A DNA stretch of 64,000 nucleotides, taken from Ostrea edulis (Eukaryota). Both the position numbers and the translations under genes were made by a program. Shown one piece after another: positions 6,654-54,650 of this stretch. The stretch covers positions 36,580,001 through 36,644,000 of the forward strand of contig NC_079164.1 in assembly GCF_947568905.1 (NCBI RefSeq), written 5' to 3'. The notes under the pieces were generated by a model that saw only the letters and a program-made list of their open reading frames with translations, did no database searches and was not told the DNA's origin. Numbering within the stretch: the first letter of the stretch is position 1; every line of letters starts with the position of its first letter.

Positions 6654-7316
6654 CTGTTACAAAATAAATGAAAGGATAGCAGATCTGGTGTAGTGTTAAT
6701 GGTTCTCTGAGTAGAATGTACAAAATCAAGTACATGAACTGGCCCTGGTGTAGCCACAAAGTTAATGAAGCTTTTTCATACAAGAAGGCGATGAACTAAT
6801 AGATGACAATAAGCATCAGTGTCAATTCAGCAGAAATTAATTGTAAACAAACAAAATTGAAGAGGTTTTTCCGTTTTTTCTTGGGGCAATTCCCGATATA
6901 TTCATTATATTTTTACCCAATATTGACAGGGGCTGCTCTTTTACACACACAAAAAATATAATTTGTTTACATTGTATGAATTATGCTGAAAATTGTTACT
7001 AAAACCGAATTTGTTAATATTGGCAAGCTGGTATATGACTCTATATTCGTTAGGTGACAATTTGATGAATAGACAATGGCTAATTTGGCACGTTTACAAA
7101 CAAACTTTGTCATTGATTAAATTATCTAAAGAATTTAGATGTGAGAACATGAAGATTGAATGTTTTGCGATGTAAATTACGTAAATTTACTACTTAAGAC
7201 AAAGACTTTCCGAAACATGTTCTAGATAATTAGTGTCTATTCATCAAATTAATGAATTAACAATAACCAAGAAAACCAACAAAATCAAAAACAAACAAAA
7301 AACACAACTGACTCAC

Positions 7317-8327
7317 CTCTAAAGACTTGTTGTGTAATGTGTCCGTATACACTATCTTTTCATCTGCAACATTTTTAATCTTCACGAACTTTTTGGCGGA
7401 ATTTGCCGACACTGGTCTCTTTCTTCTTGCAGACGGACTGTGAGCCTCGTCATCAGACCATCCGTTCGCATGGCCGTTCTGACCTGCCCCGTTCACCTTC
7501 AATGTCGTTGAGGAATTCGGTATTATTTTAGAATCCATATTTTGCTCTACTTTTTTATTGCCGGGTTCCTCAGTAGGCTTATGATCTGTCGCTGCTGAGT
7601 TCTTAGTTACCTCGGGGTTGGTTTTTGGGGTCCCTGACGAGGATCTGTCGGTTTGTGTCACTACTATTGCTGGAGATCCCCCGTTACACTGTGAAGTAGT
7701 AACTTCGGTCTGCGAGTTGGTGGCCGTTTGCACTCCGGCGTCAATCACACTGCTTCTGGTAACTAATGTTGTTGAACTCATAGGAAAATGTCTCTCAATT
7801 GGGCACATGAAACAGTTTTCCTCAATAGTTGTGTCGTGCAGACACTTTTCTGCTGACGAGTTGGGTATTATGTTATTGCTGCGGTTAGCCTTGTTCCTGC
7901 TGTAATTAGAGGGAGACTGGGATCGGGAGCGACTGAACGTTCTCCGTATGCGGCCCACGAGGGAATCGTTTGTAGGGACCACTTTGGTCACTCTTACAGT
8001 CTTAGGAACACCGTTTTCCTGAAAGGTGGTTTCAAGGTGCGTGGAATATCCATCCGGTCCTCGCAAAAGTAGGGCGACCGGGGCATCAATTGGTAAAGCC
8101 TTTAACAGTTCTACGGCGTTTTCATAGCTGGTCTCTGACATGTCAATCTCATTTACACGGGTTATGACATCACCAACATGGACCAACCCACTCTGTTCCG
8201 CCATCCCCCCGGCCACCAAGGCGGATATACAAACAAATGGCGGGGCTTTCCGAGGACGTATAAGAAAACCCAATCCATCTTGTCGTCTCTTGATTAATTT
8301 AACCCGTATCAAATTATAGTCTTCCAT
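7317..8327 (-). CDS. NOS: Nitric oxide synthase, first coding exon (337 aa): PDZ domain, beta-finger, low-complexity linker, start of oxygenase domain
   Basis: Translation GLGFLI...GGMAEQSGLVHVGDVI...LLRGPDGYSTHLETTFQENGVPKTVRVT closely matches the nNOS PDZ plus beta-finger, and KIKNVADEKIVYTDTLHNKS matches the oxygenase N-terminus. Phase-0 donor GAG|GTGAGT at 7317/7316, so the listed ORF tail to 7257 is intron. An in-frame TGA lies upstream of the ATG. Confidence 0.97.
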
Positions 8328-21975: not shown

Positions 21976-22566
21976 ACAGCTCAGTGTTAAAGCGGTCGTT
22001 GCGTAACTGGGATGTTGTGAGTTCGAATTCCACTCGTGCCATGGTCGCGTCAAAATAGGTGGTGATTGCTCCTTGACAAATGCTCGGCAATCATGGGTCT
22101 TTCGGATATGACCTTAAAAATGGAGGTCCCGTGTCACGGCAAGCGTTGGCACGTTATTGAACTCTCACTGCTACGACAAGCGCCAAGTAAGGGTTAATGT
22201 ACGAGTATCGCTCCATTCCTTAAAAGTAATGGACCGAGGCCCCGAAGGGGCCGAGGTCCATTGCTTTTAAGCAATGGAGTGATACGAGTACATTGACCCA
22301 CTTAAAATCACCTTAATAAAAACTAAACTTTGTGCATTTTAATCATGTCTTACGTTTTTCATTCTTTTGTTGCATGCATCTATATCTACTTGTATAAAGG
22401 TTGACCTACTTTCCGAACACTCCATTCCTGAAAAATAATGGAGTTATCGAACAAAAGAATGACGTCATAGGTGGATTTTAAGAATAGGTATAAATTTGCG
22501 GTACTTCACCCACAGCTGGTGACGTCTCAATATGAGTGAAAAATTGTCGATGGAGCGTAAAAAATA
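21976..22566 (+). mobile_element. SINE family B copy interrupted by a ~295-bp hairpin element
   Basis: Head, central domain and tail collinear with 62128-62442 once 22188-22482 is removed. Confidence 0.8.
22188..22482 (+). mobile_element. Non-autonomous hairpin-bearing insertion (109-nt palindrome at left end)
   Basis: Symmetric fold-back 22191-22299; ctccattcct.aaaa.taatgga repeated at ~22211 and ~22420; CRE at 22460; TAAG at both ends. Confidence 0.75.
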
Positions 22567-23789
22567 TTTTCTCCACTCTCAATACTCCCCTCCTAAAGAA
22601 GGCATACAAGATGAAGTACTGATGTTCGCTGTATTAGAACATTTCAGCATCAGAAAGTAGTCCTACCTTTTTGGCAATAATGTAGTTTTTTCTCTGGTTT
22701 TAATTGATTGAGAGGTTTTGAAAGCCTTTCTAAAGAGTATTTTTAGTATTTTACACTTAAGGAAGTATGCAATGGAAATCACCCACTTCGAGTCGTAAAC
22801 GCCTTGTGTTTCTCTTTGAATCATGAATTGTTATCATAGGTAATTGAGTAGTAATCTGATGAAATTGGTCACGTTAAAACGTTTGATTAAACAAAAGTGA
22901 GTAGTTGGATCTGATGTCAGTTTTACGACATACATACTCCAGACTCGCGCTCGGCATACTATCTAATTATGTTTACAGCACACGCTCTGTAATTGATTTT
23001 TTCCCCTCTATCAGTTTGAAACTGTTAATCAAATGATCGCTAGAATTCTTTCTATTCTTATTTCTTGGAGATATCTTCTCTGTCGTATAAAGAAGATGCT
23101 TGTTTTTAAAATTTCATTTCATGCAGTTGTGGTCAAAGCAAAGTTATTTATTCTTCTGTAACCTTTTGCATTGAGGTACATTGTATTGATTCTACAAAGG
23201 ACTAAATTTGTCATATATAACAGTACGGAAAGAATTGAATCCGGCTACTTCCCTAGTATTGCTCTTTTATGGTAAAAGATATTTTAACCATTATGTGAGT
23301 ATAACACCAATTAAGCAGCCAATCAGACACGGTTTTGGCACACAGCAAAACAGCAACCGTCTGAAAATGTCAAACGGGTCGTATCCTGCGCTCTGAGGTG
23401 CAGACGTTCTGTACATGACATTTAGAAAATCTACAGGGAGGCAAAATTGTATCATATCTGTTACCAGAAAAACCATGAAAAATACATACTTTGGGATTTT
23501 CAAGGTATCATATATTTGGTGTTATTATATACGTTCGACGTTCGGTGTGTTTTATATATTTCAGGAAATTGGCAGGGGAAACAAATTGGCACATTCAAAA
23601 CCCGCTAAAAGTCCGACTCGAAGCATTTGTGAAAACCCATTCCTGACTTTTAAAACGATGAAGAATTAAAGGTTGGATTTCCAGACTATAAATGTTATGC
23701 TCTGTATTGATGAATATGAGCCAAGTATCCCCTTAGTTTGTCGATTCTACATTCGGCATCTGCACGGAGAATGACCCCTCTTGGCTTGT

Positions 23790-48926: not shown

Positions 48927-51821
48927 CATATGAGAACGGGCGACGACGGACAAATGTCACCTGGAGGATTCAGGTGACCTAAACATAGACTAATATCATG
49001 TAAGTTAGTTAATTCTGATAATCTCATTGCACTTGATTCATTCTGTTTTAATGGAATGAATTCAGTGTTGTCCAGTTATCCAAACTAAATGATGCGTGGG
49101 AAATCTATTTCGCAAAAAGGATGAGTATTTCAATGCGATGAGTAATGGGTTTTTTTTTTCTTTAAAAATAGAAATTAGTGGAAAATATAACGAAAGTGTG
49201 TATCTCCAAGGCGTGTTATAATTTTACACAAAACCAAACTATTCATTCATAAAATATTCTTGAACTAGACAGTATTCATACATGTAATCCATCATATTAG
49301 GGAGATACAACTTGTAGTATCCGGTGATAGTGTCTCAAAAAGAAAGGTCGATCTTAAAAATAACTCCTAGCATCATGATTGGACTGAACAAATCTACAAT
49401 GAACAGTTTTAGTATTTTCCATTAAGTCTTTTCTATGTTTTTGTTTTTCCGATTAAACCATGCTTTTTATTCCAACCCTTTCAAGATTTGAAATGCTTTT
49501 CATCAGATTAGTCGATTTATTTTTGGTTTCAAGCAGAAAATATGACATTAATGTTTAATTCCCGAGAGAGATCTAGATTAACAATAATCTATACGAGCCC
49601 TGAAACTCGCCTCCATTTATCCCCGTGATTGAGTGATAAAATAAGAGAGGAAGAATGAAGATGAATGGATGTGTCATCCACGAGTTAACAGTAATCGGGA
49701 GAACTTGACGGACCCCTCATTTTGAGGGTCAGAAATCACGTGCCGCATCCCTTTTGTAAATGACTCCTGAACCAAGGCAATTGTTTGATTTAGTTCCGTT
49801 CACATAGTGATCAATTGTTAACATGTTTTGGTGAAAAAAGGATGTCTGGACCTTAGATTCTACAAGATGAACATTTTATTACAAGAAATGGGATTCCAAG
49901 AAATTCACATGTTTCACGTTGTGCGTAGAACGTAGTGACATTTATTCACATTACATCTCATTAATTAATACGAGTCCCTGGGCCTGTCACACATGAATGA
50001 CAAATCATATGGATTGGATTATCCGACGGAAATACCATTGTTACTTATAAAATAGTTAAAACCCTTCATTATTCCTGTTAAATGTTGTGTGTGTTGTTAA
50101 ATGTTGCAAATACTATGTGAAATCTAAAATCTTATAAAGGTTGACTTACAAAAAAAGTATACGAGTATCTCCCGCCGTTCTATGACCGTTGGACAAATGT
50201 ACTGAGTCGTTTTGTTTAAATTTGAATTTTCTTAGATGAACTTAAACTAAAGATTGGTGGGTGTAAACGCTTAATTAAAAAGAAAATCGTGACATTTCAA
50301 TTGCAAGCCAACTCGTGTTTCCCCCTCAGAACAACTTCATACTTTATCATGTAGGTCTATTGTGAGTACTTTTAATCGGATGTGATAATTCCCTTCGGTT
50401 TGATAGAAGATTGTTTTGTCCGACAGAGACAAACCGAGGGAAGAATATTTTGCGAGACTTTATATAAAAAGCGTTCGAGTAGACTATATTGATAAAGAAT
50501 TTCCTTCAATATTTTCTCAAACTTTCTTATCATACAGATTTAGGTTTTTATGGAATAAAAACCTCGCAACATACAACTTTCGTTGGAAAAGTGTATAAAT
50601 CATTTATTTATTTCTAAAATTGAACATCAAATTTTGTAGATTTTAAGATATAAATTTGCATCAAACTACTATCTGGTATTACTGCATGACACATTCTAAG
50701 GTGTTGTCGTAGAAATACATATAAACCAAACATTCATGTATTAAACAAAAAAACAACACCTGCGCTGTTTGTGCCCAGAGGATACTTTGTATCTAACTAC
50801 CGTCATATCCACGTGCACAATTACTAATCCTATGATAAACTACTCTATTTATTTATCAAATGCTGATACTAGGTCCGTTTACAGTTGTATCATCATAAAG
50901 GACCAAAAGTAGCAAACCGGAAACTAATGTTTGAAGGATATTCCAACAGTCAGTGGAACTTCTGAGATTAGTTTGTTAACAGTCAACGTAACAATAGGGA
51001 CTGCAAGTCTCGTTTCTTGTCACTTCCGGTGAAGCGTTTCCGGTGACAAACAAATCCGATACAGTACTGGGCCAGCTACACGTCCGAAAAACTAAAGCTT
51101 ATGCATAAATCAGAGAACGCTGTGTACCGCAACCATTTTATATGTCCCTGATTAACAAGTACACGTACATTAGATGCATTGGTTCGTGCATCCTTGAGAC
51201 TTTATAAATCAAAACAAATGATTTTTTTTTAAAACAGAGATTTTGATGTTTTTTATTCAATTTATTGCGTGAACCCTGAGGTCTACACAAAACATGTATA
51301 AGCGAAGATAAAGAGGATGCTATATGGGATTTTCGAGTTCTTCCATGTCCGTGTTTATTCTGCATTTAGTCACTATTATGTCATATCTTTAGGAATAGTC
51401 ATTTCCGGTTCATCTTCGTTAACGTAAATACAAAAGTGGACGTTGATTTTATGCACGTATCAAACTAAAGAAAATTTTGTTATAGATGAGTGTTTATCAC
51501 ACAACAGAGCTTTTCTCAGGTTCATAACACAGGTTCTGAAAACCGATATGAACTCGTAGTGCTCACAGGTTCATAATCATGCAAATAGGTAGGACAATCA
51601 TCCATCTGTCACATAAACAAAACATGCCATCCTTTGTTTTATCACCAAGGTTGTTCCAAGAAGATTTTGTCTTTTATGAAATGAAAATAATTTCCAGTTT
51701 CTTCAAATTGTGATGTAGCGACGACATCACAATCGAATTGAAGGCAAACAAATTCTGTGACATTCGGATTGTGAAATAGACAGTAAATTAAAATGTGCGT
51801 TTAATGAAAGTTGTGTGATAA

Positions 51822-52587
51822 AGAGAATCTTATACTCGTGCTTATGGCCATCGTCGGAAACCCACGGTCAGTCGCTCTACGTTCGCCTACTGTGGGTCAC
51901 AGGGCCGATATTTTCGCATAACTCATTAAAATGCATGACCTTACGTGACCTATCGAGGACCAATGGGAATCACCGTAAATATTCCCGGTACTCAAAGTGT
52001 CAGCTGTAATGGCGACGCCCATGAAAGTGTGTGTTTTGTTGAGCCACTATCAAAGATATGTTAATAAAAACTCCCAGATTTGGCACCCAAAATGGCTGAT
52101 TACTTTAACTAATACTTCACTTTCACATCCCCCCTTCGGAAATTCTGGATCCGCCTCTGGTATGTTTTTTATCATCACTGCTTCATGGCACGTGAATAAA
52201 ATCAGTCATGCATGATACAATTTAAAAATTAGATGCAAATTTGAGTTAAGATATTGTCTTACAATCCCTTTCACACGTCATTTTGTAATTAGCGTAGGTG
52301 AGACATCAACTGTGTTTGCATGATAGAGGTGTGTTTTAGATCGAAGGTCACAATTACTGGCTCAGATTGTGCCGACACCACAACTGGAACAAAAACTGGC
52401 CTTGTGACCCACGGTAGGTGAACGTAGAGCGACCGACCGTGGGTTTCCGACGATGGCTTATGGCATACGAAATTTATGAAATTCGTTACCGGATTTGAAT
52501 ATTTCCCTCGCCAATACTCGGGAAATATCAAATCCGGTAACTCTTTCATAAATTTCATATGCCATAAGTACTCGTTCAAGACCCTCT
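51822..52587 (-). mobile_element. Fold-back element with nested inverted repeats and a 112-nt palindrome
   Basis: 59-bp IR 51848-51906/52398-52456 (4 mismatches); palindrome 52457-52568; outer IR 51822-51848/52561-52587. Confidence 0.75.
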
Positions 52588-54650
52588 ATTTCTTGTTCCT
52601 TTTACCGTAAAAGTCAGCTTGTGCATGCACAAGTGTACGTTTATCTGAATCGGGATCGGGATTCACTGGTTGTTATGAGTAAAACAATCACACATTCTTG
52701 GGTCCTTCCGGCAAGCGGAAAGACGACCTAAAATGTATTACGGTAACCTCCATTCTTATATCAAATCAAAACACAATAAAAATACTTAGTGTCTTTTTTT
52801 TCAATAAATATTTGCTAGAAATTATGAAATCTTCCCATAGTAAGTCTAAAAACATATTGATACATGTAACTATTAAGTAGTGACCTACACGATGATTGAA
52901 AATGTCCATTTTCTACTTCCGGTGAACGTTATACATTCGAGGAGGCTTCCAAAACTTCCGCTAGAGTTCGTTATACAATGGGGCCTCGACGGGGGAGTTT
53001 GGGGGACATTTCCCCAACTTGCCGGAAAAAACCGAGAAGTTGCGATTGAACAGGAGAACTTTAGCTTGATGACGCAGCCTTTATTTATAGATTGGAACCT
53101 AACAGGGTGACACGTGACCGTTATCATGGGGGGGGGGGGTAGATTGCACAAGTACATGTTTATCGGGATTGGCAATATTTCATAACCATGTGTCAAGAAA
53201 ATGTTTTTAAAAAATCGATTAATGTTATGGAATCTAACTTATTGATACATACATATAATTATGATAACATATTTAGCTTAGCTGCAATAATGTAGCTCTA
53301 TCCGATTTTTTTTTTATTCCGACGTCTTCGGGATAGGGCTACAATTCCATAGGATCTCCGTATTGGAGCAAAATAATTTTATGAATAACCGATAATAAGT
53401 TCCATGTATCAATCCCAAATGTTGTCTACACCAAAAGGAGTACCAACTTTGTGCTTGTCTAATAGGGTGTTTTTCATTAAACATCATGTACAGCATGCCA
53501 AATTCTTCGTCTGCTCCGCCATGCTTGTTATCGCGAGATCTCGTACAGTGTAAGTGGATCTAATGTAAAACCTAAACATTGACAATCTGCGCGAAAATGT
53601 AGTTACTCGAGCCACTCCGACAAAGAAAGGAAAATCAGATGGTTACAGTAATGATTTACTCTTCGCTGATCGTTTTTTAACTTAATATTAAATCTAAACC
53701 TTTTTAATACCGACGAAATAGCTTTCTCCTCCGTACTTGTCCATTGATGTAAAGACTACCTTATATGGCATATGCAAATAACTTGACATTCGGAAGTTGT
53801 AACTTCAGTACATCTAACATGGCGCACAAATATGAATCGAGAAATTGGAATATATCGAAATTGTTGAAAACAGTAGAATAGAGCCTCACAAATCGTAAGT
53901 TTCAGGTTGTAAATTTATATATTGACTAAGCAACATAGAATATCATTTTATTTACGTAAAAAAATTCAGCAAATGTCTAAAATGAGCGAAAATGTTGCGG
54001 GAGTAAATCACTCCCGCATTTGCACCATTACGGAGATCCTATGGAGTTGTAGCCCCCCCCCCCCCCTCCCCTCCCCCCCCCCCCCCCCTCCAAATAAAAC
54101 TGAAGAGGGCTACATTATTGCATCTATATTCAGCTCAGCGACGCTTAACAAAAGAGGAAATGTATTGTTCTTGCTGTTTTTCATCTCTTAAATGGGCGTC
54201 ATTTGTGAAGTTGAACTGAGCTATTGCAATGAAAAACGACAAGCTTGTGAGCAACAATATTTTTTGTTGCCAGATTTGTCATTGAATTAAGGTATAAAAC
54301 ACAAGTGTTATTATCTAAACAAGATTGTGTTCTCTGTTTAATTTCAACTTTAAGGTCTTGATTAAATACAAGGATGACACATAATTCTGAGGATATCAGT
54401 TCTAGCAATAAAACTTGTAATAAGATATTTGTATGTTTCAAGATTTAAAAAATCTTGTCTAAAACACATTTTCATTTCAACCCAGAATATCAAATTTCTG
54501 TTAGAACCATATGCCTATGGTCCACGTGTTGCAGTGACTCCTTTTTGTTTTAAAAGACAACAACTTGTTGTTTTATAATTTAATGAGCATTATAAAACGC
54601 CTGTCATTATCCTGACTTGCACGCTAGACACTAAGACCTCTGAACATTAT

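What the first reader, a model, noticed from the sequence alone, without database searches (positions are those of the whole stretch)
51822..52587. Branched fold-back element with three tandem G.A motifs and a switchable 8-nt junction
On the minus strand the outer IR (51822-51848/52561-52587), the 59-bp inner IR and the 112-nt palindrome can form a multi-arm structure. GA/GA tandems occur at the palindrome tip (cccgag..gcgagg), mid-stem and in the outer IR, all on that strand. CTTATGGC (minus, 52568-52561) can pair with GCCATAAG either at 52464-52457 or at 51848-51841, so two conformers interconvert by branch migration. This resembles a pre-folded recombination or replication substrate rather than a MITE TIR. 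It is the most elaborate member of the proposed one-strand hairpin family.
Basis: partly seen in the sequence, partly recalled or inferred. Interest (0 to 1): 0.7.

Follow-up and report, generated by a model that had tools for sequence, protein, structure and literature searches.

The report
MITE nested in Crypton hairpin end
The "branched, switchable" structure is an accident: one jumping gene landed inside the hairpin end of another and duplicated 9 bases, but that host hairpin is the real, conserved end of a tyrosine-recombinase (Crypton) transposon, and its G-A mismatch design suggests the enzyme likely reads one folded DNA strand.

Summary
The repeats exist, but they belong to two independent transposons. 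Element A (51849-52455) is a deleted copy of a ~1-kb TIR MITE family; 24 of 28 copies have 9-bp target-site duplications (TSDs). The "switchable 8-mer" is simply A's TSD (51840-48 / 52456-64), unique to this copy. B has no TSD (0 of 47 copies at 6, 8 or 9 bp), an internal mirror copy of its joined ends, and a 150-nt terminal hairpin with three GA/GA tandems on one strand. B's ends flank decayed DUF3504 tyrosine-recombinase coding sequence elsewhere in the genome, so B derives from a CryptonA-type transposon. Intact Cryptons with unrelated hairpin sequences share the design (9 of 9 two-base loops are GA/GA, antisense strand). A folded single-strand substrate is inferred, untested. The scan noted this Crypton end design before on other genomes (six notes).

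The parts
51493..52588 (+). Element B: non-autonomous CryptonA-type (DUF3504 tyrosine recombinase) transposon copy, about 480 bp without the insert, interrupted by element A
   Evidence: Sharp shared ends in 47 non-redundant copies; B ends flank recombinase coding remnants in L182, L211, L212
51493..51505 (+). B left terminus (13 nt), complementary to the internal mirror segment
   Evidence: Alignment boundary; pairs with 51810-51822 in the fold of the insert-free host
51810..51822 (+). Internal mirror of the left end, directly before the hairpin; with the next bases it is the complement of the joined right and left ends (ICR-like)
   Evidence: Sequence; 71 genomic matches to the family motif at <=2 mismatches, 0 for the reversed control
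51823..51848 (+).
   Evidence: Contiguous with 52465 onward in uninterrupted B copies
51840..51848 (.). Left copy of the 9-bp target-site duplication of element A
   Evidence: Identical to 52456-52464; 9-bp TSDs in 24 of 28 A copies
51849..52455 (.). Element A: 607-bp internally deleted copy of a ~1,015-bp TIR MITE (TIR about 60-70 bp, CA...TG ends); superfamily unresolved, Mutator-like by TSD length
   Evidence: 206 exact genomic matches to the 21-nt TIR tip, 0 for the control
52456..52464 (.).
52465..52588 (+). Rest of B's terminal hairpin: left arm, tip near 52512-15, right arm. GA/GA tandems on minus at 52483-84/52542-43, 52508-09/52518-19 and 52572-73 (partner 51836-37)

Best explanation
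The region is a nested insertion: a TIR MITE with a 9-bp target-site duplication sits inside the terminal hairpin of a non-autonomous Crypton derivative, whose end design likely serves as a folded single-strand substrate for the Crypton tyrosine recombinase. Shown: A and B are separate dispersed families; the switchable 8-mer is A's duplicated target; B shares both ends with decayed recombinase-coding copies; B and intact Cryptons share a mirror segment plus a GA-studded hairpin. Inferred: on the antisense strand the left end pairs with the mirror segment while the right end pairs within the hairpin. This brings both termini together at a nicked junction. The sheared GA/GA steps would mark the strand and register for the recombinase, as extrahelical bases do in integron attC sites. 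The joined ends would then recombine with an AT-rich target needing only partial match. A's insertion probably disabled this B copy; the branch-migrating conformers are a physical by-product with no function. Odds: nested insertion about 0.97; B is Crypton-derived about 0.92; folded single-strand substrate about 0.55.
For: TSD: 16 of 28 A copies exact, 24 of 28 with <=2 mismatches at 9 bp; shuffled pairing mean 0.09; all 28 TSDs differ and only the window copy has this 8-mer. Removing A and one TSD copy restores a normal B hairpin. B link: 1 of 111 B-containing loci hit Crypton proteins (L182), and that place passes the DUF3504 cut-off (C5:50660858). Its coding DNA found 6 places; all 6 carry B left-end sequence, 4 of 6 have recombinase tblastn hits, 2 of 6 also carry B's right part. 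Design: 14 of 15 two-base loops in 7 hairpins are GA/GA on one strand; 9 of 9 in ORF-bearing Cryptons lie antisense. The mirror segment matches the left end in 9 of 11 Crypton copies at 0 of 200 shuffles. Target signature: A at -7 in 41 of 47, TWTM after the right end in 24 of 47 against 1-2 at control offsets.
Against: No intact recombinase gene with B ends was found; B does not match any of the 30 DUF3504 loci fetched at sequence level. Conservation across dead copies reflects ancestry: the tandems are kept in 33, 24 and 23 of 50 copies, and all three in only 9 of 50. The folding model favours minus over plus by only 3 kcal/mol for the family hairpin and favours plus for the whole 781 nt. 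The one-sided target match also fits the double-stranded circle model (10.1101/2022.05.23.493040, passages). One Crypton family (F5) lacks this downstream hairpin, and the mirror test failed in L138 and was weak in L144. No empty allele of this locus was demonstrated.
Confidence: 0.85

Rival explanations
1. One reading: the 766 bp is one selected multi-arm element whose 8-nt junction switches between two conformers.
For: Partial branch migration is physically possible in a folded single strand. The forced outer conformer costs 4.5 kcal/mol (minus) or 3.7 (plus); outer pairing probability reaches 0.12 on minus and 0.28 on plus.
Against: The third motif copy is a TSD unique to this insertion; no second composite among 29 A and 29 B loci. 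A is normally ~1,025 bp and this copy has lost ~408 bp. Other B copies are interrupted by other inserts, for example L091.
Confidence: 0.02
2. B is Crypton-derived but moves by the classical route: double-stranded excision to a circle and reintegration. The CTCG motifs would be duplex protein-binding sites in direct orientation, or act in a cruciform or in RNA.
For: Donor/target microhomology and clean excision were observed for CryptonF-1 in Chlamydomonas (10.1101/2022.05.23.493040, passages). B's TWTM flank resembles its own left end. Both arms read CTCG on the same strand, so a duplex direct-repeat reading is possible.
Against: It does not explain why the motifs sit exactly in register inside 130-175-nt stems of unrelated sequence, nor the mirror copy of the joined ends. 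The same paper notes that copy number rose, suggesting a more complex mode.
Confidence: 0.35
3. B is mobilised by another machinery with similar ends: a DIRS-type retroelement (ICR) or a Helitron2/Helentron-type HUH element (asymmetric inverted repeats).
For: The mirror segment has the anatomy of the DIRS-1 ICR (PMC7192593, passages). Helentron-type asymmetric repeats are recalled, not tested.
Against: B's ends flank DUF3504-type coding remnants in the expected order, and the span left between them is filled by a Crypton-sized ORF and unrelated inserts. The top 30 Phage_integrase loci show no B match and no such hairpin. No HUH search was run.
Confidence: 0.06

Closest known systems
CryptonA DNA transposons and their non-autonomous derivatives (Kojima & Jurka 2011, PMC3212892, passages; Glomhopper, PMC13465315, passages)
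   Same: Single DUF3504 tyrosine-recombinase ORF in the autonomous form; derivatives keep the 5' and 3' ends; no true TSD; AT-rich microhomology with the target.
   Different: PMC3212892 states that no terminal repeats were found in animal Cryptons. Here B and four intact families have a 13-16-nt asymmetric inverted repeat plus a 130-175-nt terminal hairpin with GA/GA tandems.
DIRS-1 internal complementary region (PMC7192593, passages)
   Same: An internal segment complementary to the joined outer ends, near the right end, in a tyrosine-recombinase element; single-stranded DNA intermediates shown for DIRS-1.
   Different: No long inverted LTRs in B; the intact Crypton families have a single recombinase ORF; the mirror is 13-16 nt plus the hairpin arm, not 88 nt.
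Integron attC sites (PMC2727003, abstract; PMC3458562, search listing)
   Same: Imperfect palindrome whose unpaired features differ between strands, with little sequence conservation between sites, next to a tyrosine recombinase system.
   Different: attC uses single extrahelical bases and is proven biochemically; here the marks are GA/GA tandems in a eukaryotic transposon and the mechanism is untested.
Non-autonomous Mutator-like elements / 9-bp-TSD MITEs (PMC5499845, passages)
   Same: Element A has TIRs, no ORF, many dispersed copies and a 9-bp TSD (8-10 bp is typical of MULEs).
   Different: TIR is 60-70 bp rather than >100 bp; no autonomous partner was found, so the superfamily is not established.

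Membership tests
TIR MITE (element A) | Terminal inverted repeats | tested here: met
   58 matching terminal bases apart from a 2-nt gap in the family majority; window copy 90% over 67 nt
TIR MITE (element A) | Fixed-length target-site duplication | tested here: met
   9 bp in 24 of 28 copies; lengths 6-8 and 10-12 in at most 1 of 28; control 0.09
TIR MITE (element A) | Short, non-coding, many dispersed copies | tested here: met
   Median 1,025 bp, longest open frame 73 codons; 206 exact TIR-tip matches
MULE / MuDR (element A) | 8-10-bp TSD | tested here: met
   definition from PMC5499845 passages
MULE / MuDR (element A) | Long TIR (>100 bp typical) | tested here: not met
   About 60-70 bp
MULE / MuDR (element A) | Shared ends with a MULE transposase element | tested here: inconclusive
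   No match in 30 of 80 MULE loci (+/-1.5 kb) or in 20 long regions at TIR hits
CryptonA (element B) | Autonomous partner encodes a DUF3504 tyrosine recombinase | tested here: met
   Decayed copies with B ends: L182 passes the PF12012 cut-off; tblastn hits between B ends in L211 and L212, with R, HxxR, GH and Y motifs visible across remnants
CryptonA (element B) | No true target-site duplication | tested here: met
   Exact duplication in 1 of 47 at 4 bp and 0 of 47 at 6, 8, 9 bp; no enrichment over shuffled pairing with shifted ends
CryptonA (element B) | Short microhomology between a terminus and the target | tested here: met
   TWTM after the right end in 24 of 47 against 1-2 at four control offsets
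CryptonA (element B) | No terminal repeats (as described in PMC3212892 for animal Cryptons) | tested here: not met
   Asymmetric inverted repeat and terminal hairpin in B, but also in intact DUF3504 elements of this genome; the description, not the membership, appears incomplete
CryptonA (element B) | Placement inside the CryptonA clade by recombinase phylogeny | not tested
   Only profile and tblastn evidence; the B partner is fragmentary
DIRS1-like retrotransposon | Internal segment complementary to both outer ends | tested here: met
   51810-51822 plus the start of the hairpin arm
DIRS1-like retrotransposon | Long inverted LTRs and RT/RNase H in the autonomous form | tested here: inconclusive
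   No long inverted LTRs in B; intact design-sharing elements have one ORF with no RT domain; the decayed B partners were not scanned for RT
Helitron2 / Helentron | HUH Rep-helicase partner sharing the ends | not tested
   No HUH search was run; the partner found is a tyrosine recombinase
attC-like folded single-strand site | Strand-specific recombination of the folded site | not testable with these tools
   Only sequence asymmetry shown
Parvovirus-type terminal hairpin | Flip and flop orientations of the hairpin | tested here: not met
   No copy of 50 has GA on both arms of the plus strand at any of the three motifs; the family definition is recalled

The most novel reading that the evidence does not exclude
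Animal CryptonA transposons move as a self-folded single DNA strand: a mirror segment splints the two ends together and sheared GA/GA tandems tell the recombinase which strand to use. They would be a eukaryotic, RNA-free counterpart of integron cassettes, and element B is a minimal 500-bp substrate for testing it.
Probability: 0.45. Interest if true: 0.8.

Novelty: new variant of a known kind. Interest (0 to 1): 0.45.

Why it matters
The composite itself is ordinary. It is a caution: any TSD made inside a hairpin arm creates a false 'switch'. The host matters more. How Cryptons transpose is still a proposed model, and animal Cryptons were described as lacking terminal repeats (PMC3212892). Here a defined end architecture is shared by unrelated families in one genome and tied to the recombinase gene. 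It makes sharp predictions about strand, cut site and target, testable with a ~460-aa enzyme and short oligonucleotides. It also gives a structural signature for classifying unlabelled hairpin repeats in animal genomes. If true, it would be a structure-specific recombinase native to eukaryotes.

Tried and rejected
1) Empty allele: contigs of 8 runs laid on 51200-52900. Joints skipping A had short sides and other letters between, so they likely come from paralogous B copies; no empty allele shown. One contig with no differences crosses the left B/A junction (X2 record 13), so that junction is not an assembly artefact. 2) Autonomous partner of A: none in 20 long regions at TIR hits (13 of their ORFs scanned, no transposase family) or 30 of 80 MULE loci. 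3) DIRS-type partner of B: none in 30 of 100 Phage_integrase loci. 4) Intact Crypton with B ends: none in 30 of 144 DUF3504 loci; the other 114 were not fetched. 5) Long B copies L091 and L187 proved to be nested inserts. 6) Flip/flop: none in 50. 7) TSD for B: none. 8) Earlier-notes look-ups by sequence and by place found nothing. 9) Literature searches for a described Crypton hairpin or GA-tandem end listed none. 'Hairpin' and 'palindrom' occur 0 times in the main texts of PMC3212892, PMC5753468, PMC13465315 and the Chlamydomonas preprint. Repbase/Dfam entries and supplements were not seen and may mention it.

Full report
Setting. The window is AT-rich, repeat-dense animal DNA with two ORFs of 150 aa or more. 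It lies in an 895-Mb genome, G000; some runs holding it are labelled oyster metagenome, so the host is probably an oyster.

Observation. The inner IR, the 112-nt palindrome, the outer IR (20 of 27 pairs) and the three 8-mer positions are as described. Folding is far beyond chance on both strands. In the best fold of either strand the 8-mer pairs within the palindrome and the outer IR stays open.

Element A. Searching G000 with 51700-52700 returned 40 scored places; apart from the window itself they matched only the segment between the inner IRs. Of 30 loci, 28 had both ends. They start and end at the same bases as 51849 and 52455, and 24 of 28 have a 9-bp direct repeat with at most 2 mismatches, 16 of them exact. 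Shuffled pairing gives 0.09. All 28 duplications differ. The family is about 1,015 bp and non-coding; the window copy lacks about 408 bp. The TIR tip occurs 206 times exactly. So the inner IR is a MITE TIR and the 'switch' is a TSD. No autonomous partner was found.

Element B. The palindrome alone finds a second family (132 candidates, 40 scored). With A and one TSD copy removed, the window aligns end to end with uninterrupted copies. The family extends left to a sharp end at 51493 and right to 52588. There are two size classes, about 510 bp (B1, this copy) and about 800 bp (B2). None of 29 other A loci held the hairpin and none of 29 other B loci held an A TIR. B1 copies are 92.6% identical to their majority and A copies 94.9%. 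That fits A being younger, but both sets are best hits and so biased.

Anatomy of B. The left 13 bases recur inverted at 51810-22, directly before the 150-nt hairpin. The complement of that segment and the next bases equals the right end joined to the left end, as in the DIRS-1 ICR (PMC7192593, passages). The insert-free host folds so that both termini meet. In 50 non-redundant hairpins the majority has three TC/TC loops on plus, that is GA/GA on minus. Both arms keep TC in 33, 24 and 23 of 50 copies; most losses are TC to TT, consistent with CpG decay; none is flipped. Tandem GA-AG steps stack strongly in DNA (PMC8163305, passages). B has no TSD, but its flanks are constrained: A at -7 in 41 of 47, T at +1 and +3 in 39 and 40 of 47, against a 0.34 background.

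Link to Crypton. A DUF3504 search gave 144 matches. Among 30 loci fetched, four families of 2.1-2.3 kb end in 130-175-nt hairpins of unrelated sequence; three checked have a single 455-471-aa ORF matching DUF3504. All 9 two-base loops counted in five such hairpins are TC/TC on the sense strand. The segment before the hairpin matches the left end in 9 of 11 copies at 0 of 200 shuffles; one was weak and one failed. A fifth family has a different, upstream hairpin. B did not match these 30 loci. However, 1 of 111 B-containing loci, L182, continues from B2's left 353 bp into recombinase coding remnants. That DNA found six places. All six carry B left-end sequence, four have recombinase hits, and L211 and L212 also carry B2's right part, in L211 reaching into the hairpin. 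B2 is therefore an internal deletion of an old CryptonA-type element and B1 a shorter derivative.

Mechanism. Shown: nesting, the TSD origin of the third 8-mer, Crypton ancestry and the shared end design. Inferred: the antisense strand folds, the mirror segment splints the ends, and GA/GA steps mark the strand, as unpaired bases do in attC (PMC2727003, abstract). The rival is the double-stranded circle model, which fits the target microhomology equally well (10.1101/2022.05.23.493040, passages) but not the in-register mismatches. The two conformers of the composite differ by 4-5 kcal/mol and can exchange partly in a folded strand; any TSD in a hairpin arm would do this.

Comparison and novelty. 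PMC3212892 reports no terminal repeats in animal Cryptons (passages), and PMC13465315 says some families lack a repeat description (passages). Six literature searches listed no description of this end design; Repbase, Dfam and supplements were not seen. Six earlier notes of this scan describe the same design on other genomes; they are unchecked and not independent support. I recall that human Eulor5/6, classed as Crypton in PMC5753468 (passages), are hairpin-shaped; this was not tested.

Verdict. The composite is a chance nesting and not a functional unit. The host end is a real, apparently undescribed variant of Crypton termini with a testable mechanism. Interest 0.45.

Noticed in passing
window 22191-22482: A second element of the same design on the opposite strand: 109-nt hairpin with two CGAG/CGAG tandems, followed by a short segment whose complement lies at about 22469-82. 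It interrupts another dispersed repeat, whose halves lie at 22100-22172 and 22481-22568.
   Followed up: partly
L048, L054 and one other of 50 B hairpins: The mid-stem TC/TC loop is converted to a perfect Watson-Crick pair in 3 copies (left arm GA) and 1 copy (right arm GA); a Crypton copy (L127) shows the same at its tip. This suggests template switching or repair within the folded hairpin.
   Followed up: no
L129:982-2382, L130:1069-2484: Two intact Crypton recombinases have T in place of H in the HxxR motif, while L126 and the B-linked remnant in L212 keep H.
   Followed up: no
L141, L142, L149 (about 710-830): A young DUF3504 family (99% identical copies) has a 107-nt hairpin at its upstream end instead of the downstream hairpin.
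   Followed up: no
L091:1357-3833: A 2.5-kb insert with 450-bp TIRs (93%) interrupts another B copy.
   Followed up: no
G000:C9:36.72-37.27 Mb: Eleven B motif matches, all on the minus strand, at spacings of tens of kb, suggesting a large tandem amplification that contains a B copy.
   Followed up: no
window about 51322-51390 and 52609-52642: Short high-copy repeats flank B on both sides: very high summed contig depth at the first, and loose ends at both.
   Followed up: no
window 15.8-17.5 kb, 19.2-20.1 kb, 23.7-24.8 kb, 36.8-37.2 kb: Tandem arrays with 22, 38, 42/82 and 22-bp periods, and several copies of dispersed SINE- or MITE-like repeats.
   Followed up: no
window 7257-8327 (-): 356-aa ORF with a PDZ domain, probably a host gene exon.
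   Followed up: partly
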